The position numbers were made by a program, and so were the translations under genes. Below the pieces are notes generated by a model, which saw nothing but the letters and a program-made list of their open reading frames with translations, had not been told where the DNA came from and did no database searches. From NCBI GenBank assembly GCA_951406725.2, contig OX597818.1:34534001-34598000 (forward strand): a stretch of DNA of 64,000 nt, read 5' to 3'. Position 1 is the first letter of the stretch; each line of letters begins with the position of its first letter. Source of the DNA: Octopus vulgaris (lineage: Eukaryota). Shown here piece after piece: positions 303 through 39,600 of this stretch.

Positions 303-642
303 TCATTATTAAAGAAGCAAGCTGGCAGAATCATTAGCACATTGGCCAAACTGCTTAGCGGTATTTTGCCCGTCACTATGTTCTGAGTTCAAATTCCATC
401 AAGGTCAACTTTGCCTTTCATCCTTTCAGGGCCAATAAAAAAAGTACCAGTAAAACACTGTATTTCACCCATTGCTACATTCTGAATTCAAATGCCACCA
501 AGGTGAACTCTGCCTTTCATCTTTTCAGGGTTGATAAATTAAGTACCAGTCAAGTACTGGGGTTGATGTAATCGACTTAACCCTTCCCCTAAATTTCAGG
601 CCTTATGCCTATAGTAGAAAGGGTTATTGTCATTACTATTAG

Positions 643-681
<39 letters not shown>

Positions 682-689
682 TATTATCA

Positions 690-1720
690 TTGAGCGAGAG
701 AGCAGAGAATGCCATCAAAGTGACACTGGGGTACAATTATACGACGCCCAATATACCCATCATTACTACCTGACTGATAAAGGTAAACCAAGCACATGCA
801 TCACAACAACATGTGTGCAACATGGTGATCTTATATCAAGATAAATAGCGCACGACCTTGCAGGTGGAGCTCAGTTACAATTTTTTCAGGTTGAGTAGCC
901 CATCTTGCTCAAAAGGTCCTTGAATAAGGTTTATTTAAGGATGATGAACAAAACACCCATGTTTCCAGAGGTGAATTATTCAAACCCCAAAGAGTTCCTC
1001 TCAACACATGGCTTATGCTCATGATCAGAGATGCACATAACATCATCCATTAAGGGATATGCTCAACTGGTTAAGGTCAAGCAACTGATAAGCAAATCTG
1101 TGGTATTGAGCTGAATATTTGCTCTAGCCCATCATTTATACCAAGACAAAACAATGTACATGATAACACTTCCAATCAGTTAAGATCAGAAGCCGTGAGA
1201 GCTAATGCCTGGTATTACATCAGGGCATTTATTATTATTATTATTGAGCGCAGTGCATACCATCATAGTGAGACTGGGGTAAAATATATGAAGCCCAGTA
1301 TACCCATCATGAGTACCGGTCTGATAAGGGTACACCAGGCACATGCATCACAGCTATATGTGCATGATATGGTGATCTCATATCAAGATTAACTGTGCAT
1401 GACCTTGCGGGTGGCGCCCAGTTAGAATTTTCTTCAGGCTGAATAGTCCATCCTGTTCAAATGGTCCTTGAATAAGAGTTGTTTAAGGATATTGAATGAA
1501 ATACCCCTGTTTCCTGAGGCGAATTATCCAAACCCCAAAGAACTCCTTTCAACACATGGCTATGATGCTCCCCCTCTACTTCTGCTCATGATCAGAGATG
1601 CACATATCATCAGCCACCAAGGGACATGCTCAACTGATTAAGGTCAAACTACTGACAAGCAAATCTGTGGTATTGAGCTGAATATTTACTGTAGCCCATC
1701 TTTTATACAAAGACAAAATA
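690..1720 (-). repeat. Two tandem copies of a ~500 bp interspersed repeat with (ATT)n ends
   Basis: ~690-1225 resembles ~1245-1720; mirrored at ~36700-37460. Confidence 0.7.
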
Positions 1721-2093
1721 TTATTACTATTATCATTATTATTTTTTTTTTATTTTATTTATTTTTTTTTTATTACGGTAGCAAGTTAGCAGAATCATTA
1801 GCATACCGGGTGAAATGCTCACCAACATTTCATCCATCCTTACGCTCTGAGTTCAAATTCTGCCATGGTCAACTTTGCCTTACCTACTTTTGGGGTTGAT
1901 AAATTAAGTACCAGTGAAACACTGGGATTGATGTAATTGTTTAATGCTCTGCCCAAAAATTTCACTATGCAAGGAGGTTTTCTTCTAATTAATCAATATA
2001 TATTACTATCATTAGTAATATTATGAAACTAACATATATTATATCATCATGACTATGTAATTATGTTATTGTCATTAAACAACTATTACTAAC

Positions 2094-2168
2094 CTTATTC
2101 TGGTTTTGGGGCTGATAGCCTCAAGAGCTCCTCGATCCCAAATAGCATTAAACTGTCCTTCAAAATCT
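2094..2168 (-). CDS. TPMT: TPMT (- copy) coding exon 5: [24 protein letters not shown]
   Basis: Reverse-complement match to 36253-36327. Confidence 0.87.
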
Positions 2169-4323
2169 CTGTGTTTTGGCAGAAAAGAAAAAGAAGTAAA
2201 ATTAATTGCAAGATTTATTACAATTGGTTGAAATTTAAAAGCACTTTTAATTATATTCTGGAAGAAAAGAAATAACCTATTTTTACTTCCTTTATTTTAG
2301 ATGAAGTTAAAGGAAGGCCTAGAAAGAATTACTGCAAGTGAAATAAATGTCAGAGATGCTTTGCCCCATGCAGAAACTAGGAGCTACGTCCTGTACACAT
2401 CACATGAATGGGGCAGTGAGGACTTAAGTAGCCTTTGTCTGAAAAAGGATTCCATCTGCAGTCCCTTGTCAACCACCACCACCACCACCACTTTGAGATG
2501 ATTTCAATTGCCATAGTTATCTTCGTACCTACTTGGAGGTTTTCTTCAAACTAACACACAGACCTAAAGGCAGTCTTCTACACCATGATTATTAATAATA
2601 ATTAACAATCATTGTAAATTGAAAAAAATAAGGAAAACAGTCACATTCATTAATAAAATAACATCTGATAATATTTTCTCAAAACTTGAATTGGTAAATT
2701 AATAATAACTGTTGTCATCATTGTCCATTTTTCTCTAAAAAGTTTATGAAGTTGTAGAAAATCTGCCTCAATAAAATCCATCTGACTCATGCAAGCAAAG
2801 AAAAATAGAAGCTGAATGATGATGATGATGATGATGATGCAAATGAGGATCTCTAATTACCAAATAGCTAATTAATACATGTAGCTGATATGGAATAAAG
2901 ATATGTAGATGGCATGGAATGAATGCTACAAAGCACTTTTATTCAGTTTATCAATTTATGAGCAACTCCTTTCTCACATGTGTCCCAAATTAACAACATT
3001 AGCATTTCCCACTGAAGTTATTTTCCTACGACAGGGGGAAATTGAAATTCTTGGACATGAGACAAAACTACTACAGCCACTACTACATCACCACCACCAC
3101 AACTGCGCTTCCTTTTGCCAACTCTCATCTGTTTCCAAACAAGTTAATATTTCCCAATGTCCAGACATCATGTGACCACGTGATATACATCACTGGTTAC
3201 AAAGTGCTCCTCACCATTTTAGCTTTCAAAAGATACCATACCATTGCATGGACGAGCAGCCCGATGTCCACACTTAATATTGGAAATGAATGACATTGCT
3301 TCTTTGACACTGACACACATTTACAAATACCACAAGATATCAAGTCAGGGAGAGACAAACCCATGCACCACCACACACAACTGGCTTTTTTTTAAGCTCC
3401 AGGCTATAGAAAGAAACACTTTCCCAAGGTGCACACATAGGGATTGAACCTGGAACTGCATGGTTGCAAAGCTAGCTACTCAGTCATTCCTCTGTGTCCA
3501 TGTTCTAATATTGAAAATTTAGTAGAGTTTTAAAAATTGCAATACTTACTTTGAAAATTTAAACATATCCATGCAATATAGTTTGATCTTTCCATCTTTG
3601 CTCTAGAAGAAAGATATAATACAAATGAAATACTTATTGAAACAATTTTTGAACAGCTAACTTCAATTTTCTGGATTTCTTTACTATAATACTCTAATTT
3701 CAGTTCTTAAGTTGCCATTTATTATTTACTCATTAGTATCCAGATCACTCTGTCAAATACGATTGCTTATTTATTCTCATCATTCTGTATTACTCATGCA
3801 TTGTCTCTGAGCTTCGAGATTTCAATGCTGTGATTGTTTCTTTTTAGAATGACATTGTGGGGAAGGTGAAAGAGGCTGGATCTGATCAGTCTGAACATAG
3901 AATATTTCAGCCGGATTTGACTTGTTTAAATGCTAAACAATTAAGCATTGTGTATGTGTAAATGCACTTAAGGTGAGAATGAGCTCACAAAATTATATTT
4001 CAATTAGAATTTCAATGCAACTATCCACTGTACCATCAATATACTACAGCTGATGGAAAAAAAGAACAAAAAAAATAATAACAATGTGAGGACATGGTAC
4101 ATACAAAGTATTAAAAAGACATTCAGAGAAAGAAAAAAAAAAGGGTGTTTTACGTTTCGAGCAAAGCTCTTCTTCAGAAACAGGAGACAGAGGAAAGTCC
4201 AAGAGAAAGGAAGTCAGAGGAAAAAAATCACCAACAATCCACATGTGGTTACATATCTATATATGTATGTATGCATCTGTTTATATATATATGTATATAT
4301 ATATATATATGTATATATATAGA

Positions 4324-4367
<44 letters not shown>

Positions 4368-4522
4368 TGTGTGTGTGTATGTATATACATATATGTGTGT
4401 ATGTGTGTATATGTATACATACATATACGTATATATATATATATGTATGTATATATAAATATATATACGCATATACGTATATATATATATGTATGTATAT
4501 ATATATATATACACATATATAT

Positions 4523-4575
<53 letters not shown>

Positions 4576-4578
4576 TAT

Positions 4579-4628
<50 letters not shown>

Positions 4629-7600
4629 ATATATATGTATGTAAATATATCTGTATGTAAATATATATATATATATATATGTACACATATATATATATAC
4701 ATATATATATACATATACATACATATATATATATATATATATTATATAGAGGGAATTACTATACATAAATGTCACACGCTAGGAGGGACTCTTAAAGTCA
4801 AAACTACCAAAATAAATAAACACATTGTACCAAATGCAACTCTCGAAGCAAGTCACTTAAAAACAGAATTCAGCCGCAAACCACGTTATTTCATAATTAG
4901 TGCAGTAATGCACTTTTTAATCATCAATGCAAGCATAATTCAAAATTTATAACGAATGAACAAAATCAACATACCAGATGATATATATACATACATATAT
5001 ATAGGATTTTCTTTCAGTCTTTGTCACACCAAATCCAATTCACTCACATGGCTTTGGTCAACCTAGAGATATACATGAGGCTAGAGTGCCACATGCTGGG
5101 ACCGAACTTCAAACTGTGTGGTTGGAAAGCAAATTTTATACCACACACCCACACCTGCACCATTATTTCAACATTTCTATAAAAGCTTCTACTATAAAAA
5201 TGAATATTTACTGCAAAGAGTTTTCCTGTGTTGTCCTTTAATTCTTCAACAGTATATTCCAAATTCTGGTCTGTAAAGAATTCCTGTAAAGCTTGTTCAG
5301 CAACGTCAACTCCAACAATATTGTGCCCTTTATCTGCTAATCTGAAAAATAAACAAACTATACATATATATATTTCTTTACAGCCCACAAGGGGCTAAAC
5401 ATAGAGGGGACAAACAAGGACAGACAAACGGATTAAGTCGATTACATCGACCTCAGTGCATAACTGGTACTTTATTTATCGACCCCAAAAGGATGAAAGG
5501 CAAAGTCGACCTCGGCGAAGTTTGAACCCAGAACGTAATGCATTTCACCTGGCGGGCTAACGTTTCTGCCAGCTCATGGATCATCATCAGCATCATCACC
5601 ATCATCATTTAACATCCGCCTATATTTATACACACACACACACACACTTGTGCACACATACAAACGCGCACACACACTCAAACACACACACACATCACTG
5701 GAGATAATGTTCTGTTGGATCCTCATAAATTTAGTGGGTGAGGGAAAAAACAAGAGCAGAGAATGGGTTCCAGAAGGATGAGAGGCTGAGAAAAGGAGTG
5801 GAAACAGTATTTATTACAGGATGAGGCGTTGCATCTCTATGGGTGATTGCTAAAAATGGACATCATTTTTATTAGATGTTGTTCTCATTACTTGGAAGTA
5901 GATCAGCTTCCATGAGCAAGTCCTTGAACAAGTATTTCAGCATGTGAGTAACTTCCACCTTGACACAGAGCCACTGTGTCCATGTTGCTATTGGTATTTA
6001 CAGAATACTAATGCAAAACATTTCCTATCAAAGACCTGCTGTTAGTTAATGAAGAAGCTTGAATCCATATGTAATGGCCCTGGAAGCTGTCCCATCTTTC
6101 AGACGGTGCATAAAACTTGTGGATTATTTAGTCTTAATTAGTGATTGATGTAAATCTTTTACAAGCATAACATAATCAAAAGACTGATACAGATTTCTTC
6201 AGTCTTTAGATAGAGCACGTAAGGTCCAGAAACTATACAAGCACTTCCTTGCTGGTTCTTTTTATAAGGTGTTCAGGTAATCTCCTAACTTATTGAGTCA
6301 CTGTTATTCAAAGACAATACTTACTTTTTCATATCTACACATTTCCCACAAAAGGGAAAGAAAATTTTTATTCCATTTCTTCCATCAATAAATTTGTCCA
6401 AGTGTTTCTCAAGTGATCTTAAAGACAAAGGAAAAGAATAGCAAAAATAAACAATTATTTGAATAATATTCCATAAAAAACAATAATAATTTCTTTTGAC
6501 AGAGTACCATGCCAGTTATTTAAAGGGAAAGGTGTAATCAAAAGATTGAACCTCAATATGTTACTGATACTCATTTTGTCAGTAATGTAGGCACAAGAAG
6601 CAAAGAAAACCTGGCAGAATTAGAAACCAAGAACAAGATAGGGAGCCTTTATGAAATCACTCAAACTGCTGGTAATAACAGCTAAACCCTTCAATGGTAT
6701 CCTTGCATGAAAATTATTGAGGTGAGAAAATGTGATGCTTCTTGACATCCCCCAGCTTCATACTGCTGAAGATGCAAGAGGAAATAAAAGATAAATCCTT
6801 CACACAGGGAAACAAGCAAGGCTTAGGGTGATGAAGGGCATTTGATTGTGAGAACAATGACTGCGAAATGTATTTGATAGCAAGGAAAAGAAAACAGATA
6901 TTAGACAAATAAATTCATTTTCATGTAACTGAGAAATAGTGGATTGACCTCTGTAATTCTTGTTTCCCTTCATCTTCTCCCTACCCCTCTTACATGTCAC
7001 TCCTTAATTTCTGTTACCATTTGCAGACAATACTACTTCTCTCTCTCTCTCTCTCTGTGTTTCTCAGTTGGAAGAAAGTGTAAGAAAAAAAATGGTAATT
7101 AGACTTAGCAAACTCTTCTAAGAACTTTACTATAGGTTAACCCATTTGATACCAACCCACCTGAGATTGACCCTAATTTTATGATACAAATTTCTCATTT
7201 TAACCCTTTAACATTTAAAGCGGACATATCTAGCTAAAATATTCTACTTGCTTTATGTTCAAACTGGCCAGATCTGGAGTCTCACATCTACCCTGAATGT
7301 CATTTTGAACATAAACAAACACATCATCAAAATCTCAAAGTTACAAGATAATGCAGGATAAATTCATGACAATCATCATCATCATCCTCCTTTCCCTCTT
7401 CATCATCATCATTTAGCATCTGCTATCCATGCTGGCATGGGTTAGATGGCTTGGTTGAAACTGCTAAACTGGAGAGCTGCACCAGGTTCCAATCAGATCT
7501 AGGACGGTTTCTACAGCTGGATGCCCTTCCTAAATGCCAACCACTCCTCTGACAGAATAATCTGAATGCTTAAGGGTAAAGTGATCTAAATAACAAATTT

Positions 7601-8286
7601 CTTTCAAAATTTCAAGTTGATTGATGTTTCAAACATCATTTTAATTACTGCAAAGTTATTTCATTATTAAATTCTTCATTACTTTCAGAATTAATTAAAA
7701 TAAAGACTGGGTATTTTAACAGAAATATGGTAACAAAAGAGTTGACAATAGGTATGATGCAGTATCAGTGATGTGACAGGAAATGTTCATCCCTCAGCTG
7801 ATCACCCAGCATCCTTATCAATTCAAGACATGTAAGGGAGTCTCTAGGCAGTCACCTGATGTGCTAGAAGTAGCAGATAAGCCTCCCTCAAATAACACTC
7901 TGCTATCTTATAAAGGGTGGATCACCTGTGCTATGTAGCTCTTAAACAATAAAAAAACAGCCCCTGGGATCATATCTTGGGTCAAGCGGGACTGACTTTA
8001 GGCCTGTTATAAGTTTAAAGACTCTTTAGGTCAAAGTTTATTTCAGTTCCATGGCATATGAACATAACTAAATAGTATGGCAGAACAATCATGGCAAAAC
8101 TAGACAGTTACAACTTGAGCCAGATGTGGTGCTTGAATAAGTTAATTAATTAAAAGATAATTGAGTAACTTACACATGCATTTCTTCCTGGTGGAAAGGA
8201 ATATTTTTAGTGTTCCACAGATTGATCCAGTAACCATTTTCATCAAATTCGCCATCAGAGGTAGTTTTCTTTTCACTCTCAGTCAT
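2094..8286 (-). CDS. TPMT: Second TPMT paralogue, coding exons 1-5 (3' exons not in window)
   Basis: Exons 8174-8286, 6325-6417, 5212-5341, 3550-3602 and 2094-2168 have intact splice sites and no stop or frameshift; 14 nt differences in 464 nt versus the + copy. Functional versus pseudogene status cannot be decided inside the window. Confidence 0.85.
3550..3602 (-). CDS. TPMT: TPMT (- copy) coding exon 4
   Basis: Identical to reverse complement of 34826-34878. Confidence 0.85.
4146..4182 (-). ncRNA. Minimal type I hammerhead ribozyme motif (Penelope-like-element type)
   Basis: Minus strand reads TGTTT CTGAAGA A GAGC TTT GCTC GAAA CG TA AAACA: stem I TGTTT/AAACA, CUGANGA core, stem II GAGC/GCTC, GAAA, palindromic ACGT stem III, GUA cleavage triplet. 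Confidence 0.7.
4255..4748. repeat. Complex (TA)n/(TG)n/(CA)n microsatellite
   Basis: ~500 bp dinucleotide tract; source of the YIYI ORFs. Confidence 0.95.
5212..5341 (-). CDS. TPMT: TPMT (- copy) coding exon 3: [22 protein letters not shown]...KLFA
   Basis: Contained in ORF 5044..5388; matches 33749-33878. Confidence 0.87.
6325..6417 (-). CDS. TPMT: TPMT (- copy) coding exon 2: [30 protein letters not shown]
   Basis: Reverse-complement match to 32905-32997. Confidence 0.87.
8174..8286 (-). CDS. TPMT: TPMT (- copy) coding exon 1: [37 protein letters not shown]
   Basis: Reverse-complement match to 30941-31053; ATG and gtaagt retained. Confidence 0.85.
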
Positions 8287-10169
8287 ATTTGGTTCTTCAA
8301 AACAAACAGAAAAATAAATTCAAAAAGGAACAACACACATTTATTAAAAGACTGGTTCAAGAGTGTGAAAGGGATAAATTTTTCAGGCAAGTATTTATCC
8401 GTCTTCACCAAGTGCTTCTTTCTTCACTACTTTGGTAAGTATGGTGAAGTCCATTATTTGCTGAAGAGAGCTAATCCAATTGAAATGTGTTTGGAGTTAT
8501 CTCCCTTATGTTCTGAAATACCACTTGCCATTGAATTAATGCTGACTTTTCATCAGTAGATTATTATTTTTAATTATCTTTCTGCAGCTTGTGACATTAA
8601 ATACATTAATACTAATTCAGATAAGGTAAGACAATATGAAGCTATGTGGTCTTAGTTAGGGTGTTGGATTCATGATTATAAGGTTGTGGTTTCAATTTCA
8701 AGACTGTCTGGGATTTCTTGAATAATATACTTCATTTTACACTGTTTCACTCCTCTCAGCTGAAAATTAGAACCAGCAACTGCGATGGTCTGACATCATG
8801 TTTAGGAGGGACTTCTCTATTCTTGAGTTGCTCATAAGCCCTAGAAACCAAGATAAGCTCTGATGTAAAAAACTTGTAGGCTCATGACAGACCTAAGTTT
8901 GAGCTTATGATGGGGTCTTTGCATGATCACTTGAACTGCAAGACATAGCAGTCAAATGAAAGGACAGGTCAAGGTAAGTAAAAGCAGGTCCTTTATTGCC
9001 ATGAACTCCCTCACACACACATAGTCTCTCCCCTGTCAAAACTCCCCTACAACACATTTTCCCAACACCTCCACCACCAGCTGAAGGAACCCCCTCCCCT
9101 CCACTCTCGGTCACATGCCTATCTGCTCATTCTTCATGCCCTCACATCTGCCATACACCCCTCCCAATTTCTCTCATCATCACTTGCAACAGCCGTGTCT
9201 TCCCCATCTCTAAGCGTCTCCCCTCACATTCTTATGGAACATCTTCCTCCCCTCCCACAGTACTACTTATTTATAAAAAAATTTTAAATCCAGTTTTCGG
9301 AAAGTTGTGAGGAGACAAAGACAACTCGTGTGAATTTTTCGAAACTCCTCTCCCCATCCTTGGAAAAACCCTTTCATAAAAACATTTCCATATAATCGGA
9401 ATCTAGAGCACCTGAAGCATATTTATAGAGGTTTTCATTGGAAAACATCCATTTTCCACGCAGTTATGAGGAAACAAAATCGATGGGGCACATTTGTGTA
9501 AGTATGCTCTGATAAATAACTCACATGAATTACGGTAAGTTGAATAACGAAAACAACGCAACAGTTTACGGTGTGCGACCTACAAAAAGTAACAGCCAAA
9601 TCTCTCTCAAATCACAGTTCTAGATGCACTAAGTCTGAATAAAATACTGGATGATAACAGATAGATTGTCTTCGATCACAGATCAGAGTTATACGTCTTA
9701 TCGATTATTTTTACTCTGTTCAATAGAGCATATAAATATGAACTTTTCTAAAAAGTATTTTAAGACAATGGATGCAGTTATTACTGCATTACAGCTTGAG
9801 GCAATTCAGTCTTTTATCTAGACTTAGTGTATTGAGGACCGTGATTTTAAAGATCTACCTGCTATTTCTAATAGATCGAGCGACGGCATAAAAGCTCTTT
9901 TCTTAATTGTCATGTTGTGCTTGCTATTCAACTTAAGCTATTCACATGATTAATAAAAATTGTTTTTTAAAAAGGTGACAAAGTAGTTCGTTTCTAAACG
10001 ATCTTGTTCCAGGTTCTGTACCACTGAGCAACACCAGTACCTTAGCTTCAATATAGTATTTAATTGGTGTTGATCAGCCTAATAGGGAAAACTTATGATC
10101 AATGACGTTCCCTCCATCTCTTTTAATTATAGAGAAACTACCCTGCTCGAAAATCGTATTAAAGACTCA

Positions 10170-10473
10170 TCTTTATATATAAAAATGAAGTTGTGTGAGA
10201 GTCTGTCTCCTCCAATTTAGATTCCTAACTACTCCCACATTTTGCGGTGCAGTTTAACCAAAAGCGGGTATCTTATAGTCGGGATTCATATCGAGCCCTT
10301 CTAGGTATTAGCGTGCGTCTACGATGAGTCTACGATTTAAAAAAAAATTTACCATCATTTTTTCGTTTTTTAATGCTTTTTTTGCTCGTTTTATATAAGG
10401 GAAGTAACTCTCTAAAAATGCTTATATAGTTATTTCCCTTACAAACCCGAGCAACGCCGTGCGATACTGCTAG
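10170..10473 (+). mobile_element. Non-autonomous Helitron
   Basis: A|TC...hairpin...CTAG|T; empty A|T site in the other arm at ~28300; near-identical family member at 27141-27402. Confidence 0.88.
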
Positions 10474-11444
10474 TATTTAAATAAAAATTTTCGATGCAAA
10501 CCTTGTAACAAAAATCTATTCTTTTCTACTCTAGGCACAAGGCCCGAAATTTTGTGGGAGGTGGACAGACCTATCGGTACTTAATTTATCGACTCCGAAA
10601 GGATGAAAGGCGAAGTCAATTCAGTTATGTCCCTTGGCACAATGAAACCCAGTGTTTACGTTCTTCTTCCTACGAGGGTGTAGTCTAGTGCATATGTTAG
10701 AAATGATTCCCTGATCATTTCTTTATGATTTTATTCGACGTATATATATATACTAGTCTGTTGTCTATAAGAATTAACCGAATTGGTTAATTTAACTGTA
10801 CACACGGATCTTTGTATTATTGTATCTTATTTTAAAATCAGATCGAATACACTTATCCATTTAAATTTTATCGCCTAAAATATTTTACTGACGCACTAAA
10901 TTGATTGCTTCCCAAGCGCAAAGTTTACAGATTTACCCCTAAAAAGCGAAATGAGAGATAATGATAACGTCTAATACGCATTTGTGAGTATATTTCTAAT
11001 GAGGAGACTGTGATGTGTTACATTCAAATTACGATGAACGTAAACAAACAAACGAAGTTTGCTTTAGAAGCGTTTCCACGTCTTAGAAAGGACCAAACTG
11101 GGGCGTAGGTCTACGCAATTGCTATTTCCCCTTTGGTAAGCAAAATGCTTAGCGGTATTTCGTCGGCCGTTACGTTCTGAGTTCAAATTCCGCCGAGGTA
11201 TGGCTGAGTGGTTAAGTATGCTTCGTAACCGAGTTATGGGATGTTTTCCTTTTGAACAGCAGTTTTCAACACAATTTCTAGTTAACTAAACACTTTTAAA
11301 CTTCGTATACTGGTATAATGTGTCAAAATAAAACGTTTTTTTCTCTTGGCTTTCTTGAGAAAATTGTAATTTGTAAGTTTAACGTTGTTTAATTTTTCGA
11401 ATTTTAACCAATCAATTGCCTCTATTGAGCTAAAATCATTTGCT

Positions 11445-11692
11445 GCGTCTAAGGAGGCAGACCAAAAGGGAACAGAGACAGTTCCTGCCAATTCGAGGCG
11501 TTGTTGGATAGGCAGAAGTTCTTCAGTAGTTTCGAGAGAACAAGGGCGAAACAAGTCCGAGCACCCTAAGGGATCTGATTGACAAGCTTCAGCTTGGACA
11601 AACCCAGGGATCTGGAATTCAGAGCAAGGTTCTTCGGTCCTACTAAGGATGTCAGAGCTGAAGTGATATCAGTTGCATGTCCAGTTAGAAAA
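11445..11692 (-). mobile_element. Remnant of the CRE-like element in the left arm
   Basis: Reverse-complement match to ~23722-23960. Confidence 0.8.
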
Positions 11693-11796
11693 TGGCCCAT
11701 TGTATCAGGAACGAAGTATATATTATAGTTTCATCAAAATGTTACTACATGTATTCATGGAAAACAAAACAAAATATAACGAGTTACGCAAATTAG

Positions 11797-12390
11797 GGCG
11801 ATGTTTCGCTTGTCGTAGCACACGTTTCCGTCGATTTCCGTAAAAAATGTAAACACTGAATCGGCCATACATACATACATACATACATACATACACACAT
11901 ACATACACACATACATACATACACACACACACACATACATAGATACATACACACACACATACATGCAGACATAACTATACACATACACCGAGTAAAAAAT
12001 TACGATGAATCGGCCATACATACATACACACACACATACTTACACACACACACATACATAGATACATACACACACACACACACATACATGCATACATACA
12101 TATACACATACACCGAGTAAAAAATCAGTTATCTCTCTCTTTCACACATTACTCTCTCTGTCTCTTCGCACACACTAACAGAAGCACTTCACTTACACAA
12201 CATACTGTCTGTCTCCCACACCCCATCAAACACACACACGGGGACTTCAAAGGGAAATTTCCTCGTCATAAAATCGCTTCCTCTTAGTCTCTTTCGCTCT
12301 CATTACTTATGTAAAAAAATAAAAGTTTTTTTACGGAAATCGACAGAGGAAATCGACGGAAACTTGTGCTACGACAAACGAAACATCGCC
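11797..12390. mobile_element. MITE with ~43 bp TIR (GGCGATGTTTCG...), 2 bp TSD AG, internal (TACA)n
   Basis: TIRs at both ends; the empty site in the other arm (~23135) shows a single AG. Confidence 0.85.
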
Positions 12391-27140: not shown

Positions 27141-27402
27141 TCTTTATATATAAAAGAGAAGTTGTGTGTCTGTCTCCTATGATTTAGATTCCTAACTACT
27201 CCCACATTTTGCGGTGCAGTTTAACCAAAACCGGGTATCTTATAGTCGTGATTCATATCGAGCCCTTCTGGGTATTAGCGCGCGTCTACGATGAGTCTAC
27301 GATTAAAATGCATTTTTTGCTATTTTTTGGCTATAACTCTCTAAAAATGCTTATATAGTTATTTCCCTTACAAACCCGAGCAACGCCGGGCGATACTGCT
27401 AG
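27141..27402 (+). mobile_element. Non-autonomous Helitron (same family as 10170-10473)
   Basis: A|TCTTTATATATAAAA ... CCCGAGCAACGCCGGG ... CTAG|T. Confidence 0.88.
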
Positions 27403-30400
27403 TAGCTTATAAACACCTTCCACGCTGCAATTGTTTTCGTTACAGCACACGATCTCAGATCAAGTCACTCTCCGTAAATGTTTATAGATTTGGCGAAGTT
27501 TCGAGATTTAAGTAGAAAACACTTCCACGCTGCAATTAATTGTCTCTGAACATTACAATTCAGTTATGTCCCTTGGCACAACGAAAACTAGTGTTTGAGT
27601 TTTTCTTCCGACGAGGGTGCAACCTTGTGCAAATGTAAGAAACGAATTTCTGATCATTTCTTTATCTCATTCGACATATATATATATATATACTAGTCTG
27701 TTGCCTATAATAATTAACCGAATCGGTTAATCTAACGGTAAGCACGGATCTTTGTTTGTGTTATTGTATTTTATTTTAAAATCAGATCGAATACACTTAT
27801 CTATTTAAATTTTATCGCCTAAAATATTTTACTGACGCACTAAATTGATTGCTTCTCAAGCGCAAAGTTTACAGATTTACCCCTTAAAAGCTAAATGAGA
27901 GATAATGATAACGTCTAATACGCATTTGTGAGTATATTTCTAAGGAGGAGACTGTGATATGTTAAATTCAAATTACGATGACCGTAAACAAACAAAGTTT
28001 ACTTTAGAAGCGTTGATAAAGGACCAACCTGTTAGGGCGCAATTGTTCATCTTTATCTCTTTCTTGTTTTCTTTCCTCCATCTACGCTTGTTCCTACGCT
28101 TGGTAGGCAAAATGCTTAGCGGTCTTTACGTTCTGAGTTCAAATTCCGCTGAGGTCGACTTTACCTCTCTTTCTTTCCGAGTCGATAAATTAGGTGCGAG
28201 TAGGTCTGGCCCCTTCCCACCAAATTTCGGGCCTTGTGCCTAGAGTAGAAAAGAATATATTCTTGTTACAAGGTTTGCATCGAAAACTTTTATTTAAATA
28301 TGAGCCTTTCATACGATTTTCGTGCTGAGTAGTTTTTCTATAATTAAAAGAGAGACACATTGGTTTATGTACTTTGGAAGATAAGATGATTGTGGAAGGA
28401 GCGTCATTGATCATAAGTATTCCCTATTAGGCTGATCAGCACCAATTAAATACTATATTGAAGCTAGGGAACTGGTGTTGCTCAGTGGTACAGAACCTGG
28501 AACAGGATGGTTAAGAAACGAACTTCTTTGTCAACTTAAAAAAAAAACAAACAATTTTTCTTAATCATGTGAATAGCTTAAGTTGGATAGCAAACACAAA
28601 GTGACAATTAAGAAAAGGGCTTTTATGCCGTCGCTCGATCTATTAGAAATTGCAGGTAGATCTCTCAAATCACAGTCCTGGATGCACTAAGTCTAGATAA
28701 AAGACTGGATTGCTTCCAGCTGTACTGCAGTAATAGCTGCATACATTACCTCTAAGTACTTTTTAGAAAAGTTCATATTTATATGCTCTATTGAACAGAG
28801 TAAAAATAATCGATAAGTCGTATAACTCTGATCTGTGATCGAAGACAATCTATCTGTTATCATCCAGTTTTTTATTCAGACTTAGTGCATCTAGAACTGT
28901 TATTTGAGAGAGATTTGGCTGCTATTTTTTGTAGGTCGCACGCCGTAAACTGTTACGTTGTTTTCCTTATTCATCTTACTCTAATTCATACAAGTTATTT
29001 ATCCCAGCATACTTACACAAATGGGCCCCATCGATTTTGTTTCCTCATAACTGCGAGGAAAATGGATGTTTTCCAATGAAAACTTCTATAAATATGCTTC
29101 AGGTGCTGTAGATTCCGATTATATAGGAATGTTTTTGCTAAAAGGTTTTTTTCCAAGGATGGGGAGAGGAGTTTCGAAAAATCACACGAGTTGTCTTTGT
29201 CTCCTCTCAACTTTCCGAAAACTGGATTTTAAAATTTTATATAAATACCTTTCAGGTGGTGTATATTACGATTATATTCGAATTTAATATGAAAAAAAAA
29301 AAAAAAGTGGTTACTGACACACATCACGAAATGAAAATTGAAATATCGAAAAAAATTTGTGAGGAGTCTCTTAATATATGTGTGAACGCCCACCATTTTT
29401 TCGTCTTAAATTCCGATATAATCATAATCCACATCATCTGAAAGTTATTTGTAGAAAGTTTCATTTTAAAATACCCAATTTTCTGAAAGTTACGAGGAAA
29501 CAAAACTGACTTTTGTGAATTTTCAGAAACTCCCCTTCCCACCTTCGGGAAAATTCTGCACCAGGCTCCATTTAACTGTTTTGATGTGGTTTCTCCAGCT
29601 GGTTGCCCTTTCTAATGCCAATCATTTTATGGAGTGTACTCAGTGCTTTTTATGTGTCTCCAGCACAGATGCTTTTTACATGCAACCAGCACCAGTGGGG
29701 TCACCAGTTACCTTGCAAGTCAAAAACCTCTCAGCTGCAAGAGGGAGTGGAACTGTGGAAAGTGGTTATGTGCCAGGCAAGAGGTTCAAGTGAAACAGAG
29801 GGACAGGGATAGGTGTCTTATTATAGAGGAGGTACTTGACTACACCTGTAGCACAGGGATGGAGAGGAAAGTGGGAGAGAGAGAGAAGTAGATGGTGTTG
29901 AAGGAAGCCTGTCAACAGGAAACATTGGAGGGAGTATAAGTAGTACTGAGGGAACAGAGGAGGATTTTCCATTAGGGTATGAGAGGAGATGTTTAGAGAT
30001 GGAGAAGACACGGCTGTTGCAAGTGATGTTGAGAGAAATTGCGGTAGCTGGGAGGGGTGTATGGTAGATGTGAGGGCATGGAGAATGAGCAGATAGGCAT
30101 GTGACGGGGAGGGGGGAACTTTCAGGTGGTGGTGGAGGTGTTAGAAAGATGGTTTGTTGGGGAGTTTTGACAGGGGAGAGACTATGTGTGTGTGAGGGAG
30201 TTCATGGCCATAAAGGACCTGCTTGGATGTGTGGATGGCCACACATTTACTTACCTTGACATGTCCTTTCATTTGACTGCTATGTCTTGCAGTTCAAGTG
30301 ATCATACAAAGACCCCATCATAAGCTCAAACTTAGGTCTGTCATGAGCCTTCAAGCTTTTTACTATCAGAGCTTATCTTGGTTTCTAGGGCTTATGAGCA

Positions 30401-30940
30401 ACTCAAGACTAGAGAAGTCCCTCCTGAACATGATGTCAGTCCATTACAGTTGCTGGTACTAATTTTCAGCTGAGAGGAGTGAAACAGTGTAAAATGAAGT
30501 ATACTGTTCAAGAACACCAGCCAGTCTGGAAATTGAAACCACAACCTTATAATCATGAATCCAACACCCTAACTAAGACCACATAGCTTCATATTGTCTT
30601 ACCATATCTGAATTAATATTAATGTATATATTGTCACAAGCTGCAGAAAGATAATTAAAAATAATAATCTGCTGATGATAAGTCAGCATTAATTCAATGG
30701 CAAGTGTTATTTCAGTATATAAGGGAGATAACTCGCGACATATTTCAATTGGATTAGCTCTCTTCAGCAAAGAATGGACTTCACCATAGTTTCCAAAGTA
30801 GTCATGAAAAAGGCACTTGGTGAAGAAGGATAAATACTTGCCTGAAAAATTTATCCCTTTCACACTCTTGAACCAGTTTTTAATAAATGTGTGTTGCTCC
30901 TTTTTGAATTTATTTTTCTGTTTGTTTTGAAGAACCAAAT

Positions 30941-31053
30941 ATGACTGAGAGTGAAAAGAAAACTACCTCTGATGGCGAATTTGATGAACATGGTTACTGG
31001 ATCAATCGGTGGACCACTAAAAATATTCCTTTCCACCAGGAAGAAATGCACGT
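30941..31053 (+). CDS. TPMT: TPMT (+ copy) coding exon 1: [37 protein letters not shown]
   Basis: ATG at 30941, donor gtaagt at 31054. Confidence 0.9.
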
Positions 31054-34000
31054 GTAAGTTACTCAATTATTTTTTAACTAATTAACCTAATCAAGTACCA
31101 AATCTGGCTCAAGTTGTAACTGTCTAGTTTTGCCATGATTGTTCTGCCATACTATTTAGTTATGTTAATATGCCATGGAAACTAAAATAAACTTTGACCT
31201 CATGAGCCTTTAAACTTATGACAGACCTAAAGTCAGTCCCACTTGACCCAAGATATGATCCCAGGGTCTGTTTTTATTGTTTAAGAGCTACATAGCACAG
31301 GTGATCTACCCTTTATAAGATAGCAGAGTGTTATTTGAGGGAGGCTTATCTGCTACTTCTAGCACATCAGGTGACTGCCTAGAGACTCCCTTACATGTCT
31401 TGAATTGATAAGGATGCTGGGTGACCAGCTGAGGGATGAACATTTCCTGTCACATCACTGATACTGCATCATACCTATAGTCAGCTCTTTTGTTACCATA
31501 TTTCTGTTAAAATACCCAGTCTTTATTTTAATTAATTCTGAAAAATAATGAAGAATTTAATAATGAAATAATTTTGCAGTAATTAAAATGATGTTTGAAA
31601 CATCAATCAACTTGAAATTTTGAAAGAAACTTGTTATTTAGATCACTTTACCCTTTAGCATTCAGATTTTTCTGTCAGATGGAGTGGTTGGCATTTAGGA
31701 AGGGCATACTAAATCAGATTGGAACCTGGTGTAGCTCTCCAGTTTAGCAGTTTCAACTAAGCCATCTAATCCATGCCAGCATGGAAAGCAGATGCTAAAT
31801 GATGATGATGAAGAGGAAAAGGTGGAGGATGATGATGATTGTCATGAATTTATCTTGCATTATCTTGTAACCTTGAGATTTTGATGATGTATTTGTTTAT
31901 GTTCAAAATGACATTCAGGGTAGATGTGAGACTCCAGATCTGGCCAGTTTGAACATAAAGCAAGTAGAATATTTTAGCCAGATATGTCCGTTTTAAATGT
32001 TAAAGGATTAAAATGAGAAATTTGTATCATAAAATGAGGGTCAGTCTCAGGTGGGTTGGTTTCAAATGGGTTAACCTATAGTAAAGTTCTTAGAAGAGTT
32101 TGCTAAGTCTAATTACTATTTTTTGCCCTTATCCTTTCTTCCAAAGGAGAAACAGAGAGAGAGAGAAGTAGTGTTGTCTGCAAATGGTAACAGAAATGAA
32201 GGAGTGGCATGTAAGAGGGGTAGGGAGAAGATGAAGGGAAACAAGAATTAGGGAGGTCAATCCACTATTTCTCAGTTACATGAAAATGAATTTATTTGTC
32301 TAATGTCTGTTTTCTTTTCCTTGCTAGCAAATACATTTCGCAGTCATTGTTCTCACAATCAAATGCCCTTCATCACCCTAAGCCTTGCTTGTTTCCCTGT
32401 GTGAAGGATTTATCTTTTATTTCCTCTTGCATCTTCAGCAGTATGAAGCTGGGGGATGTCAACAAGCATCACATTTTCTCATCTCAATATTTTTCATGCA
32501 AAGCATCGATACAGGCATACTATCCTAAGCCTTTATTCATGCATATGTGTATGCTTGCACATGTACACACATGCTCACTGCTACATTTGTAGTGCTGCAG
32601 AGATCCAAAAACCCCAGGTTGGATACCATTGAAGGGTTTAGCTGTTATTACCAGCAGTTTGAGTGATTTCATAAAGTCTCCCTATCTTGTTCTTGGTTTC
32701 TAATTCTGCCAGGTTTTCTTTGCTTCTTGTGCCTACAATACTGACAAAATGAGTACCAGTAACATATTGAGGTTCAATCTCTTGATTACACCTTTCCCCT
32801 TAAATAACTGGCATGGTACTCTGTCAAAAGAAATTATTATTGTTTTTATTGAATATTATTGAAATAATTGTTTATTTTTGCTATTCTTTTCTTCTGTCTT
32901 TAAGATCACTTGAGAAACACTTGGACAAATTTATTGATGGAAGAGATGGAATCAAAATTTTCTTTCCCCTCTGTGGAAAATGTGTAGATATGAAAAAGTA
33001 AGTATCGTCTTTGAATAACAGTGACTCAATAAGTTAGGAGATTACCTGAACACCTTATAAAAAGAACCAGCAAGGAAGTGCTTGTGTAGTTTCTGGACCT
33101 TACGTGCTCTATCTAAAGACTGAAGAAATCTGTATCAGTCTTTTGATTATCTTATGCTTGTAAAAGAGTTACATCAATCACTAATTAAGACTAAATAATC
33201 CACAAGTTTTATGCACCGTCTGAAAGATGGGACAGCTTCCAGGGCCATTACATATGGATTCAAGCTTCTTCATTAACTAACAGCAGGTCTTTGATAGGAA
33301 ATTTTTTGTATTAATATTCTGTAAATACCAATAGCAACATAGACACAGTGGCTCTGTGTCAAGGGTGTAAGTTACCCACACGCTGAAATACTTGTTCAAG
33401 GACTTGCTAATGGAAGCTGATCTAATTCCAAGTAATGAGAACAACATCTAATAAAAATGATGTCCCTTTTTAGCAATCACCCATTGAGATGCAACTCATC
33501 ATCCTGTGATAAATACTGTTTCCAATCCTTTTCTCAGCCTCTCATCCTTCTGGAACTCCTTCTCTGCTCTTGTTTTTTTCCCTCACCCACTAAATTTATG
33601 AGGATCCAACAGAACATTATATCCTGTGATGTGTGTGTGTGTGTGTGTTTAAGTGTGTGTGTTTGTGTGTGTGCACAAGTGTGTGTGCATAAATATAGGT
33701 GGATGTTAAATGATGATGATGATGCTGTGTAGTTTGTTTATTTTTCAGATTAGCAGATAAAGGGCACAATATTGTTGGAGTTGACGTTGCTGAACAAGCT
33801 TTTCAGGAATTCTTTACAGACCAGAATTTGGAATATACTGTTGAAGAATTAAAGGACAACACAGGAAAACTCTTTGCAGTAAATATTCATTTTTATAGTA
33901 GAAGCTTTTATAGAAATGTTGAAATAATGGTGCAGGTGTGGGTGTGTGTGGTATAAAATTTGCTTTCCAACCACACAGTTTGAAGTTCACTCCCAGTGTG

Positions 34001-36648
34001 TGGCACTCTAGCCTCATCTATATCTCCAGGTTGACCAAAGCCTTCTGAGTGAATTGGATTTGGTTGACAAAAACTGAAAGAAAGATTCTGTTATAGATAT
34101 ATATATATATCATCATTTAATGTCCGTTGTTCATGCTGCCATGAGTTGGACACACACCCACACACATACATACATATGTAACCACATGTGGACTGTTGGC
34201 GATTGTTTTCCACTGTCTTCCTTTTCTCTTGGACTTTCCTCTGTCTCCTGTTTCTGAAGGAGAGCTTTGCTCGAAACATAAAACACTCTTTTTTTCTTTC
34301 TCTGAGTGTCTCATTAATACTTTGTATTTACCATGTCCTCCTGTTGTTTTTTTTTTTTAGTCCTTTTTTTCCCTCAGCAGTAGTGGTATTGATGGTACAG
34401 TGGATAGTTGCATTGAAATTCTAATTGAAATATAATTTTGTGAGTTCATTCTCATCTTAAGTGCATTTACACATACATGATGCTTAACTGTTTAGCATTT
34501 AAACTGGTCAAATCTGGCTGAAATATTCTATGTTCAGACTGATCAGATCCAGCCTCTTTCACCTTCCCTACAATGTCATTTGAAAAAGAATCAATCACAG
34601 CATTGAAATCTCGAAGCTATGAGACAATGCATGAGTAATACAGAATGATGAGAATAAATAAACAATCGTATTTGACAGAGTGATCTGAATACTAATGAGT
34701 AAATAATAAATGGCAACTTAAGAACTGAAATTAGAGTATTATAGTAAAGAAATCCAGAAAATTGAAGTTAGCTGTTCAAAAATTGTTTCAATAAGTATTT
34801 CATTTGTATTATATCTTTCTTCTAGAGCAAAGATGGAAAGATCAAACTATATTGCATGGATATGTTTAAATTTTCAAAGTAAGTATTGCAATTTTTAAAA
34901 CTCTACTAAATTTTCAATATTAGAACATGGACACAGAGGAATGACTGAGTTGCTAGCTTTGCAACCACATAGTTCCAGGTTCAATCCCTATGTGTGCACC
35001 TTGGGAAAGTGTCTCCTACTATAGTCTGGAGCTTAAAAAAAGGCCAGTTGTGTGCATGTGTGTGTGTGTGCGTGCACGTGTGTGATGCATGGGTTTGTCT
35101 CTCCCTGACTTGACATCATGTTGTGCTTGTAAAATGTGTGTCAGTGTCAAAGAAGCAATGTCATTCATTTCCAATATTAAGTGTGGACATTGGCCTGCTC
35201 GCCCAGCCAAAGGTATGGCACCATTTGAAAGCTAAAATGATGAGGGGCACATTATAACCAGTGATGTATATCACGTGATCACATCATGTCTGGACATGGG
35301 GAAATATTAACTTGTTTGAAAACAGATGAGTGTTGGCAAAAGGAAGGGCAGTGGTGGTGGTGATGTAGTAGTGGCTGTAGTAGTTGTGTCTCATGTCCAA
35401 GAATTTCAATTTCCCCCTGTCGTAGGAAAATAACTTCAGTGGGAAATGCTAATGTTGTTAATTTGGGACACATGTGACCAAGGAATTGCTCATAAATTGA
35501 TAAACTGAATAAAAGTGCTTTGTAGCATTTATTCCATGCCATCTACATATCTTTATTCTATATCAGCTACATGTATTAATTAGCCATTTGATAATTAGAG
35601 ATCCTCATTTGCATCATCATCATTCAGCTTCTATTTTTCTTTGCCTGCATGAGTCAGATGGATTTTATTGAGGCAGATTTTCTACAGGTTGATAACCATT
35701 CCAGAGAAAAATGGACAATGATGATGACAGTTTTATTAATTTACCAATTTAAATTTAGAGAAAATATAATCAGATGTTATTTTATTAATGAATGTGACTG
35801 TTTTACTTATTTTTTTTCAATTTACAATGATTGTTAATTATTATTAATAGTCATGTTGTAGAAGACTGTCTTTAGGTCTGTGTGTTAGTTTGAAGAAAAC
35901 CACCAAGTAGGTACAAAGATAAATATGGCAATTGAAATTATCTCAAAGTGGTGGTGGTGGTTGACAAGGGACTGCAGATGAAATCCTTTTTCAGACAAAG
36001 GCTACTCAAGTCCTTACTGCCCCATTCATTTGATGTGTACAGGAAGTAGCTCCTTGTTTCTGCATGGGGAAAAGCATCTCTGACATTTATTTCACTTGCA
36101 GTAATTCTTTCTAGGCCTTCCTTTAACTTCATCTAAAATAAAGGAAGTAAAAATAGGTTATTTCTTTTCTTCCAGAATATAATTAAAAGTGCTTTTACAT
36201 TTCAACAAATTGTAATTAATTTTTCTTCTTTTTCTTTTCTGCTAAATCACAGGGATTTTGAAGGACAGTTTAATGCTATTTGGGATCGAGGAGCTCTTGT
36301 TGCTATCAGCCCCCAAACCAGAATAAGGTTAGTAATTATTGTTTAATGACTATAACATAATTACAGTCATGATGATATAATTTATGTTAGTTGCATAATA
36401 TTACTAATGATAGTAATATATATTGATTAATTAGAAGAAAACCTCCTTGCATAGTGACATTTTGAGGCAGAGCACTAATCAGTTACATTAACCCCAGTGT
36501 TTCACTAGTACTTAATTTATCAACCCCAAAAGTAGGCAAGGCAAAGTTGACCATGGCAGAATTTGAACTCAGAGCGTAAGGATGGATGAAATGTTGATGA
36601 GCATTTCGCCCGGCATGCTAATGATTCTGCTAACTCACTACCTTAATA

Positions 36649-36683
<35 letters not shown>

Positions 36684-39600
36684 ATTAATTATAATATTCT
36701 GTCTTCATATAAAAGATGGGCTACAGCAAATATTGTGCTCAATACCAATGATTTGCTTGTTTGACCTAAATCAGTTGAGCATATCACTTGGTGGCTGATG
36801 ATATGTGCATTTCTGATCATGAGCAGAAGTAGTGGGGGAGCATCATAGCCGTGTGTTGAGAGGAATTCTTTGGGGTTTGGATAATTCACCTCTGGAAACA
36901 GGGGTATTTCATTCAACATCCTTAAACAACCCTTATTCAAGGACTATTTGCGTGGGATGAGCTACTCAACCTGAAGAAAATTCTAACTGGGCCCCACTTG
37001 CAAGGTCATGCACTGTTAATCATGATATGAGATCACCATGTCATGCACATATGGTTGTGATGCATGTGCCTAGTGTACCTTACCAGACAGGTACTCATGA
37101 TGGGTACACTGGGCTTCATATATTTTACCCCAGTCTCATGGTGATGGCATGCACTGCTCTCACTCAATAATGATAATAATAAATGCCTTGATGCAATACC
37201 AGGCAGTGGCTCTCATGGCTTCTGATCTTAACTGATTGGAAGTGTTATCATGTACATTGTTTTGTCTTGGTGTAAAAGATGGGCTACAGCAAATATTCAG
37301 CTCAATACCACAGATTTGCTTTTCAGTTGCTTGACCTTAACCAGTTGAGCATATCCCTTAATGGATGATGTTATGTGTATATCTGATCATGAGCAGAAGT
37401 AGTGGAGGAGCATCATAGCCATGTGTTTAGAGGAATTCTTTGGGGTTTGAATAATTCACAGATGCCCTGGGAATGACAGCAAAAGGCGCTGATTGCTACC
37501 TAACACAGATACCAGGAAACCAAAAAATGGCAGAAATTCAAAAGATAGTGCTCAAGAGAACTGCTCATATCCTACGCAAAATGCTTTCCATGTAATCTCA
37601 AGTTTTAAAACAAACATAATTTTCTTATGGTTTCTTAAGCATTCACTAGTACAACACAAAGTACAAAGCCAAATATATGGCACCCTAGGTATAACACCAA
37701 CATGAACTTCCAACATGTTGTCTCTTGAGGTCTCTGTGTGAGACTTGCAGCCAACTTGTACAAATGTAAAGCAAAAGTCAAACATAGAATAATTATAGTA
37801 ATGATAATAATCCTTTCTACTATAGGCACAAGGCCTGAAATTTGTAGGGAGGGTTAAGTCAATTACATCAACCCCAGTACTTGACTGGTAATTAATTTAT
37901 CAACCCTGAAAGGATGAAAGGCAAAGTTCACCTTGGCGGCATTTGAATTCAGAACATAGCAACAGGTGAAATACCACTAAGCATTTTTCCCAGCATAACG
38001 ATTCTGCCAGTTCGCTGCCATAATGATAAAATAATGGTTTTAAATTTTGCCCTAAGGGCAGCAATTACATCGACCCCAGTGTTTTACTGGTACTTGTTTT
38101 ATCAACCCTGAAAGGATCAAAGACAAAGTTGACCTTGATGGAATTTGAACTCAGAACATAGCGGCAGACAAAATACCGCTAGTCATTTCGCCCGGCGTGC
38201 TAACGTTTCTGCCAGCTTGCCGCCTTAATAATGATAACAATAATAATAATTTGTACTAAACAAATTTGTAACATTAGGATATAGTCAACTAAATTTACTC
38301 CAGTTCAAGAGAATGAAAGGTAAAATGGAAACCAGAAGGATTTGAAACCAAAATTTAACAGGTGGAACTAAATTCTGTACCATTTGTCATCAACATCACT
38401 TCCATTTTAGTTCCCCCACTTCTTTTTTAGTTAACAATTGTTGGATCTTTTCGGTTTGAACGGCAGTTTTTAACATAATTTCTAGGTAACTAAAGCATTT
38501 TAAACTTAATATACTGGTAGAATGTGTTTATAAAACATCTTTTTCTCTTGGCTTTATTGAGAAAATTCTATAGTTTGTAAGATATTTGTTTTTTTTCTTC
38601 AATTTTTGCAATTTCAACCAATCAGTGACATCCTTTCAGGTGAAAAAACATTCTGTGCCATATGAATATGTTCCTCGTTTAAGAAACAGATTGGGTTTAT
38701 TTACATTTGTGAAGAAAAAAAGGATACCCTCTCCCCACCCCTAACCCTAACACAGATTGAAATGCAATAGATCGATACTAGGGTCATAATTATGGGTGAC
38801 AATTTCATATGTTCATACCGAAAAGATCCCAATTATTTCGAAAAGAACAACCACTTATTCACAACATGTTATTGTATTAAAAAGATATATAATGCATATA
38901 AAGACCTTAGATTTAAATCCTTAACTCTTAGGTGAACTGAATGTGGTTTGTAGTAACATAATTAACTAATGCTTAAAGGCAGCAGTTAAGAGATATGTGT
39001 GTTCAAGTTTCACTTCATACTCATTATGTCTCAACTCAATTTGTACTTACTCTTGATATTGAAAATATTTAAGGCAACAAGCTGGCAAAATTGTTAGCAT
39101 TCTGAGCAAAATGCTTATCAGCATTTTGTCTGTCTTTACATTCTGATTTCAAATGTAATCGACTTAACCCCGACACCGAAATTGCTGGCCTTGTGCCAAA
39201 ATTTGAATCCAATATAAGAAGTATTGAAAAATTGCAATTGAATTATGTTTTTTTGTTCATTTTCTTTATTCTTTCCTCAGAACTTCAACAGTATAAAGAG
39301 AAAATATTTTATTTTGAAAATATAATTGTTGTTGTTGTTATTGCATTTAGGTATTCCCAGGTGATAAAAGAGTTACTTTCCCCTGACTGTCACTATATGA
39401 TTGCCGCAATGCAGTATGACCCTTCAATATTTCAAGGTAAATGAAGAATGAGAGAGCACGATACACTATAACCACTTGAATATATGGTGAGGTTTTCCTC
39501 TCTTTGAAAATCATCCCTCACAAAAATATGAACCACTTTTATTGAATTTCATATAAATTTCTAAGTAAACACGAAATACTTTCCAAAAAGTCTTAAAAAC

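What the first reader, a model, noticed from the sequence alone, without database searches (positions are those of the whole stretch)
305..38235. Head-to-head TPMT gene pair created by a >13 kb inverted duplication
Seen: the arms 305-13926 and 18813-38235 are collinear reverse complements, each with TPMT coding exons 1-5 pointing outward and a ~4.9 kb non-duplicated spacer between them. Known: TPMT is a SAM-dependent methyltransferase of aromatic thiols, and family members also methylate Se/Te compounds. Inference: a lineage-specific expansion of thiol or metalloid methylation. Homology stops at 302 at an apparent Helitron end, so exons 6-8 of the left copy probably lie just off-window.
Basis: partly seen in the sequence, partly recalled or inferred. 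Interest (0 to 1): 0.75.

Follow-up and report, generated by a model that had tools for sequence, protein, structure and literature searches.

The report
Octopus TPMT triplet with diverging pockets
An octopus chromosome carries three intact copies of the gene for the sulfur- and selenium-methylating enzyme TPMT, two in tandem and one inverted, and all three differ at two of the three charged positions that grip the substrate in the mammalian enzyme, so they likely act on different compounds.

Summary
The inverted duplication is real, but it is part of a three-copy cluster. Copies A (off-window left, minus), B (minus) and C (plus) each have 8 intact coding exons with GT-AG introns; all three pairs are 93.9% identical and no other TPMT match was found in the genome. 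B's exons 6-8 lie left of the window as predicted, but homology does not stop at 302: a 368-bp Helitron is inserted there. Part of the 'unique' spacer is duplicated in A. Copy C starts at the base after a DNA-transposon end that lacks its usual target duplication. A haplotype mis-join is very unlikely (three copies; matching exon-8 types in O. sinensis). Codons 1-130 are constrained (13 nonsynonymous:13 synonymous); codons 131-234 are not (28:4). At mouse K27/R147/R221 the copies read Q/R/K, L/R/W, R/R/R, and V146, invariant in 17 of 17 outgroup rows, is A or E in two copies. Substrate divergence is likely but untested; relaxed selection is a serious rival. Only C is shown spliced. Public protein records exist (one fuses B and A); Argonauta, Sepia and O. 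bimaculoides also have neighbouring records. The scan's index held no earlier TPMT finding.

The parts
1..17164 (-). In-window part of the copy B unit (left arm plus the upstream part shared only with A). It continues 5.7 kb left of the window, where exons 6-8 lie (G000:C5 34,533,197 to 34,530,662). Copy A, a direct repeat of B with 8 intact exons, lies wholly off-window (G000:C5 about 34,501,721-34,525,511, minus; exons 34,515,938 to 34,502,629)
1..302 (+). In-window part of a 368-bp non-autonomous Helitron-like insertion in B intron 5 (starts 66 bases left of the window; A|TC ... hairpin CTAG|T); absent from C
2094..2168 (-). Copy B exon 5 (R142 kept, E146, S149)
3478..3739 (-). 262-bp stretch identical in B and C (34689-34950) over exon 4 (B 3550-3602): probable gene-conversion tract
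5212..5341 (-). Copy B exon 3
6325..6417 (-). Copy B exon 2 (FPFCGK motif)
8174..8286 (-). Copy B exon 1 (L23)
12946..12975 (-). Homologue of an upstream exon used by public O. sinensis models; donor reads GC here, GT in A and C
13927..17164 (.). Spacer part that continues upstream of B; 13927-15032 and 16651-17164 are also in A; holds a decayed mariner transposase (HTH_48)
17943..18812 (.). Non-autonomous DNA transposon with ~280-bp terminal inverted repeats; family makes 8-bp target duplications, this copy matches only 4 of 8; its right end abuts the first base of arm C
18813..48061 (+). Copy C unit (right, inverted arm), enlarged by insertions
22572..23107 (+). Two upstream exon candidates of C (22572-22601, 23057-23107) matching N-terminal extensions of public models
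30941..36327 (+). Copy C exons 1-5 (30941-31053, 32905-32997, 33749-33878, 34826-34878, 36253-36327); R23, R142, V146
39351..44631 (+). Copy C exons 6-8 (39351-39436, 43475-43519, 44522-44631); R215, V227; intron 7 spliced in three RNA-like runs

Best explanation
Three intact TPMT genes sit in one cluster (two tandem, one inverted), and they have likely been kept because their substrate-binding halves diverged, giving enzymes predicted to prefer different thiol, persulfide or selenide acceptors. Shown: three full frames, near-equal 94% identity, a constrained N-terminal half and an excess of amino-acid changes in the C-terminal half. Inferred: the copies arose close together in time, after the split from O. 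bimaculoides and before the split from O. sinensis (roughly 7-19 million years); a DNA-transposon end made or trimmed the inversion junction; short conversion tracts move between copies. Predicted: C keeps the cationic pocket for anionic acceptors (R23, R142, R215), A is partly neutralised (Q23, A146, I149), B has the least cationic pocket (L23, E146, W215, W227) and would favour a different, less anionic or aromatic acceptor.
For: Frames: 0 stops against 3.4-3.6 expected and 0 indels against 3.8 expected at the intron rate, all 21 introns GT-AG. Nonsynonymous:synonymous 13:13 in codons 1-130 versus 28:4 in 131-234, Fisher p 0.003, breakpoint-scan corrected p 0.003. Against the intron mutation spectrum: N-half 13 observed versus 21-23 expected (p 0.02-0.04), C-half 28 versus 18-19 (p 0.016-0.039). 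Positions 23, 142, 215 align to mouse K27, R147, R221, named as acceptor-binding in PMC13089183 (passages); R142 is invariant, 23 and 215 differ in all three copies. Position 146 is V in 17 of 17 outgroup rows, 23 is K/R in 16 of 16 rows with a residue, 227 is R/K in 14 of 15. Exon 8 differs by 6-9 residues between copies but by 0 from the matching O. sinensis record in 3 of 3 cases. A146+I149 recur in one O. bimaculoides record. C is spliced in 3 of 3 RNA-like runs.
Against: Over the whole coding sequence the nonsynonymous count is neutral-like (41 versus 39-42 expected); the half-and-half split was chosen after seeing the data, and C-half nonsynonymous versus synonymous alone is not significant (p 0.23). 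The skew to the C-half is not significantly different from between-species divergence (p 0.14 and 0.22). Position 215 is never R in the cephalopod outgroup rows (K, I, L, M), so it is loosely constrained. Two of the three residues rest on simulations of the mouse enzyme; only R152 was mutated in the passages read. All three O. sinensis models have R23. No activity was measured, and expression of A and B is not shown.
Confidence: 0.5

Rival explanations
1. Redundant duplicates under relaxed selection: C is the working gene; A and B are intact but drifting, or kept only for dosage, and the pocket changes are mild decay (B perhaps inactive).
For: Whole-CDS nonsynonymous count equals the neutral expectation; B has radical changes at conserved sites (E146, W227) and a GC donor at one upstream exon.
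Against: No stop, frameshift or broken coding splice site in any copy where about 7 stops and indels are expected; N-half is under purifying selection; C itself carries 9 and 6 exon-8 differences and V227; exon-8 types are unchanged in O. sinensis.
Confidence: 0.3
2. An old coleoid TPMT tandem array that is turned over and homogenised within each lineage, with selection protecting a few pocket residues; the 94% identity then dates the last homogenisation, not the origin.
For: Neighbouring similar records in O. bimaculoides (3), Argonauta (2, 7 differences) and Sepia (2); residues shared by paralogues within a species at 6 positions while A146/I149 cross species; a 262-bp B=C tract (p 0.005 after collapsing adjacent sites); O. 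sinensis models are exon mosaics of A, B and C.
Against: Divergence is even along 9,819 columns (runs test p 0.58), as expected from one origin; the foreign records may be alleles, isoforms or mis-joined models; trees of the halves are unresolved.
Confidence: 0.17
3. Assembly artefact: two haplotypes joined head to head.
For: Read depth and spanning long reads could not be examined; only contigs were offered.
Against: Three equidistant copies cannot be two haplotypes; copy-specific transposon insertions of kilobases; O. sinensis has all three exon-8 types; one DNA-like run of another study (X2) holds both a B-type contig and a C-identical exon-8 contig.
Confidence: 0.03

Closest known systems
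Mammalian TPMT (mouse 2GB4/3BGD, human 2BZG; Pfam PF05724)
   Same: About 43% identity, TM-score 0.88, rmsd 1.6 A for the model of copy C; R152 equivalent and the WDRGA motif kept in all copies.
   Different: Three paralogues in one cluster; K32 and R226 equivalents vary (Q/L/R and K/W/R); V156 equivalent is A or E in two copies. That mammals have one gene is recalled, not tested.
Public Octopus protein records (CAI9722665.1-CAI9722667.1; O. sinensis XP_029637123-125, XP_029637162/164)
   Same: Copy C is contained in P0006 and P0008; copy A is the second half of P0012.
   Different: P0012 (470 aa) fuses B exons 1-7 to A, so B has no record of its own among those listed; the O. sinensis A- and B-type proteins are named as isoforms X3/X4 and share exons 1-3. 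The record names do not describe a triplet.
Inverted duplications by alternative (sister-chromatid) transposition of maize Ac/Ds (bioRxiv 2020.01.07.897926, 12 of 16 passages read)
   Same: An 8-bp-target-duplication DNA transposon end sits exactly at a breakpoint without its target duplication.
   Different: In maize the centre holds an excision footprint and the element lies at the distal target; here a full element lies at the centre, so a later adjacent deletion fits equally well.
Tandem expansions of detoxification enzymes (CYP, GST, UGT arrays; recalled)
   Same: Local duplication, occasional conversion, divergence concentrated in the substrate-recognition half.
   Different: Only three copies, one inverted, in a family whose natural substrate in invertebrates was not found in the searches run.

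Membership tests
TPMT family (PF05724) | Pfam score above the curated cut-off | tested here: met
   190 bits versus 26 for copy C; two stretches, 354 bits, for the B+A fusion record
TPMT family (PF05724) | Class I SAM methyltransferase fold closest to TPMT | tested here: met
   AlphaFold model of C, pLDDT 89.9; top 4 Foldseek hits are TPMT chains, TM 0.88; A and B were not folded
TPMT family (PF05724) | Active-site arginine equivalent to human R152 | tested here: met
   R142 in all three copies and 17 of 17 outgroup rows
TPMT family (PF05724) | Further basic acceptor-binding residues (mouse K27, R221) | tested here: inconclusive
   Both basic in C; K27 lost in A; both lost in B; R221 also absent in decapod rows
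TPMT family (PF05724) | SAM-dependent S- or Se-methylation activity | not testable with these tools
   needs recombinant assay
Bidirectional gene pair with one shared promoter | Starts within about 1 kb (recalled criterion) | tested here: not met
   Upstream exon candidates at 12975 and 22572 are 9.6 kb apart and each arm has its own duplicated upstream region; true starts were not mapped
Inverted triplication (DUP-TRP/INV-DUP, ODIRA; recalled) | Middle copy inverted between two direct copies | tested here: not met
   Order is minus, minus, plus
Alternative-transposition inverted duplication | Transposon terminus at the breakpoint, target duplication missing | tested here: met
   Arm C starts at 18813, the base after the terminus; flanks match 4 of 8, against 6 or more of 8 in 15 of 20 other full-length copies (5 of 20 also fail; 4 of 25 fetched loci dropped as not full-length)
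Alternative-transposition inverted duplication | Excision footprint at the centre and partner end with the matching target copy elsewhere | tested here: inconclusive
   No third copy of the sequence beyond the breakpoint among the scored candidates; no partner end recognised
Non-autonomous Helitron | 5' TC, 3' hairpin plus CTAG, insertion between A and T without target duplication | tested here: met
   -65 to 302 compared with the empty site in C; other genomic copies not sought

The most novel reading that the evidence does not exclude
Coleoid cephalopods have duplicated TPMT repeatedly and independently (O. vulgaris/sinensis, O. bimaculoides, Argonauta, Sepia), and selection has rebuilt the acceptor pocket each time, with the same A146 plus I149 pair arising twice in Octopus and copy B turning a cationic thiolate site into a hydrophobic one. 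The triplet would be a natural set of specificity variants for finding what animal TPMT really methylates.
Probability: 0.25. Interest if true: 0.68.

Novelty: new member of a known kind. Interest (0 to 1): 0.42.

Why it matters
TPMT is known from drug metabolism, and natural acceptors (selenium species, persulfides, hydrosulfide) were assigned only recently in mammals (PMC10844679, PMC13089183). Three closely related natural variants that differ at the residues thought to grip those anions make a cheap test of which acceptors matter in an invertebrate predator and of how a methyltransferase pocket is retuned after duplication. It also corrects the public models, one of which fuses two genes.

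Tried and rejected
Pfam search of the genome found nothing, probably because exons are short (0 of 9 candidates); a protein query worked. Search for shorter homologues of residues 128-234 found none. Protein trees of residues 1-130 and 131-184 left the Octopus rows unresolved, except B with O. sinensis P0001 (the rotifer row was left out of both trees, P0024 out of the second). A general mosaic of conversion tracts was rejected (runs p 0.58; A=C and A=B tracts not significant after collapsing). Inversion of a pre-existing third tandem copy with its upstream flank left elsewhere: no such flank among 40 scored candidates in each of two searches. No RNA holder was listed as on record; the RNA label of X12, X13, X19 is a guess backed by the splice joint. 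A- or B-type spliced contigs were not in the listed rows, but tables were cut and contigs drop rare variants, so this is no evidence of silence. Read depth, spanning reads and exons 1-6 were not examined with reads. The two crystal-structure papers were not held, so no full pocket list was available and no pocket-enrichment test was run. A 470-aa two-domain enzyme (P0012) is in frame but B has its own exon 8 and stop; treated as a model artefact, untested.
Full report
Coordinates are window positions; negative values lie left of the window (G000:C5 position = 34,534,000 + value; one search gives the window's place).

Observation. A self-comparison shows the two arms as collinear reverse complements. 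With 100 kb added on each side the picture widens to three units: A (-32279 to -8489, minus), B (-5717 to 17164, minus) and C (18813 to 48061, plus). Collinear chains give 93.9% ungapped identity for each pair, over 13.3, 15.8 and 15.7 kb. B-C homology does not end at 302; a 368-bp element with Helitron ends is inserted in B intron 5 and the match resumes at -65. Of the 4,886-bp spacer, 13927-15032 and 16651-17164 are also upstream of A; two genome searches found only these two full-length copies among 40 scored candidates each.

Genes. An exon-3 query found Octopus TPMT proteins. All 24 of 24 genome matches are the 3 x 8 exons of this cluster. Each copy gives a 705-nt frame, 234 residues, with all seven introns GT-AG. 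Copy C is contained in records P0006 and P0008, named O. vulgaris; P0012 (470 aa) is B exons 1-7 joined to all of A. Protein identity between copies is 88-91%. Pfam PF05724 scores 190 bits and the model of C matches mouse and human TPMT at TM 0.88.

Real or artefact. Three equidistant copies with private insertions cannot be two haplotypes. Each exon 8 has an identical counterpart in an O. sinensis record (3 of 3). On 43300-46900, run X2 (DNA-like, another study than the best holder) has a contig with B-diagnostic letters and another identical to C exon 8. Runs X12, X13, X19 (RNA by guess, three studies) all join across C intron 7 (1002 bases, GT..AG), X2 does not; X19 has a 505-nt contig with no difference from C over exon 8 (4 of the 24 listed runs were laid). 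Expression of A and B is not shown. Depth and spanning reads could not be examined.

History. Aligned non-coding segments differ by 3.4-7.4% in each pair, and single-copy changes are evenly split (A 256, B 254, C 269 of 796 variable columns; runs test p 0.58). This fits two duplications close in time. [quoted passage not shown] One stretch of 262 bp over exon 4 is identical in B and C (p 0.005 after collapsing adjacent sites, three pairs tested), a probable conversion. Arm C begins at the base after the end of an 870-bp element with long terminal inverted repeats. Fifteen of 20 other full-length copies have flanks matching at 6 or more of 8 bases; this one matches 4 of 8 (4 of 25 loci dropped). 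The transposase therefore probably cut here, either making the inversion as in maize alternative transposition or deleting adjacent DNA later; the two cannot be told apart. Candidate first exons are 9.6 kb apart, so a shared promoter is unlikely.

Selection. At the intron mutation rate 3.4-3.6 stops and 3.8 short indels are expected across the three frames; none is seen. Changes split 13 nonsynonymous to 13 synonymous in codons 1-130 and 28 to 4 in codons 131-234 (Fisher p 0.003; corrected over all breakpoints p 0.003). The N-half is below the neutral expectation (13 versus 21-23) and the C-half above it (28 versus 18-19, p 0.016-0.039, post hoc). Against this: the whole gene is neutral-like (41 versus 39-42), C-half dN over dS is not significant alone (p 0.23), and the skew is not significant against between-species divergence (p 0.14, 0.22).

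Pocket. Positions 23, 142 and 215 align to mouse K27, R147 and R221 (with a 12-residue offset that reproduces all three numbers). PMC13089183 (abstract and 14 passages) names these as binding HSS-, GSS- and MeSe- in simulations and shows R152E lowers activity; PMC10844679 (10 passages) concludes that TPMT recognises anions through basic residues. The copies read Q/R/K (A), L/R/W (B), R/R/R (C). Five codons encode a different residue in all three copies: 23, 146, 213, 215, 227. In 17 outgroup rows 146 is always V, 23 always K or R where present, 227 R or K in 14 of 15, but 215 is never R, which weakens that site. That 146, 149, 187 and 227 face the acceptor is inferred from position and from recall; the structure papers were not held. 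All three O. sinensis models carry C-type exon 1 and mixed exons 2-7, from conversion or from model errors.

Other cephalopods. O. bimaculoides has three distinct record types on a contig of one length, Argonauta two consecutive records differing at 7 positions, Sepia pharaonis two on a contig of one length; alleles or isoforms are not excluded. O. bimaculoides P0004 shares A146 and I149 with copy A while sharing six residues with its neighbour P0009 against all three copies here: parallel change after independent duplication, or an older array homogenised around a protected patch.

Prior knowledge. Searches for TPMT with octopus gave 1 and 4 papers, none on this subject by their listings; none of 20 listed of 200 papers on mollusc expansions mention TPMT; one search gave 0. 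The library lacks most subscription papers, and genome-paper supplements, which could list this expansion, were not read. The scan's index showed no TPMT note (8 of 21 shown; empty).

Verdict. A real, intact, three-copy cluster of a known enzyme family, made by ordinary means. Its interest lies in the pocket divergence, which is suggestive, not proven.

Noticed in passing
window 20921-22162 (-): Broken transposase-like frames (likeness recalled) inside an insertion private to arm C (about 20205-22409); no Pfam hit in 3 of 3 frames.
   Followed up: partly
window 23675-26564 (+): Decayed non-LTR retroelement (RVT_1 below cut-off) upstream of C; pieces of it are also in A and B, so it predates the triplication. 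Record P0012 takes its first exon from this piece in B (11605-11700).
   Followed up: partly
window 41734-42839 (+): LINE reverse-transcriptase fragment (RVT_1, 59.5 bits) inserted in C intron 6 only.
   Followed up: partly
window 45695-46114 (-): piggyBac-like transposase remnant (DDE_Tnp_1_7) downstream of C exon 8, in a stretch absent from B.
   Followed up: partly
window 38443-38829: Shorter relative of the junction element in C intron 5 with a normal 7-of-8 target duplication; a truncated relative lies at 17165-17451 where A-B homology ends.
   Followed up: partly
window 18410-18500: The junction element carries TAACCC-like tandem repeats in its middle.
   Followed up: no
window 43479, 44449-44513: The same synonymous change at 43479 appears on a C-type contig (X12) and a B-type contig (X2), and one shallow X12 contig has 4 differences including B-like letters: possible conversion polymorphism or chimeric contigs.
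   Followed up: no
L015, about 108791-112816 in window numbering: A 2-kb tandem duplication at 98.8% identity, 45 kb right of the window.
   Followed up: no
L008, -25584 to -24782 in window numbering (A intron 5): Tandem array of about 155-bp units at 90-92% identity.
   Followed up: no
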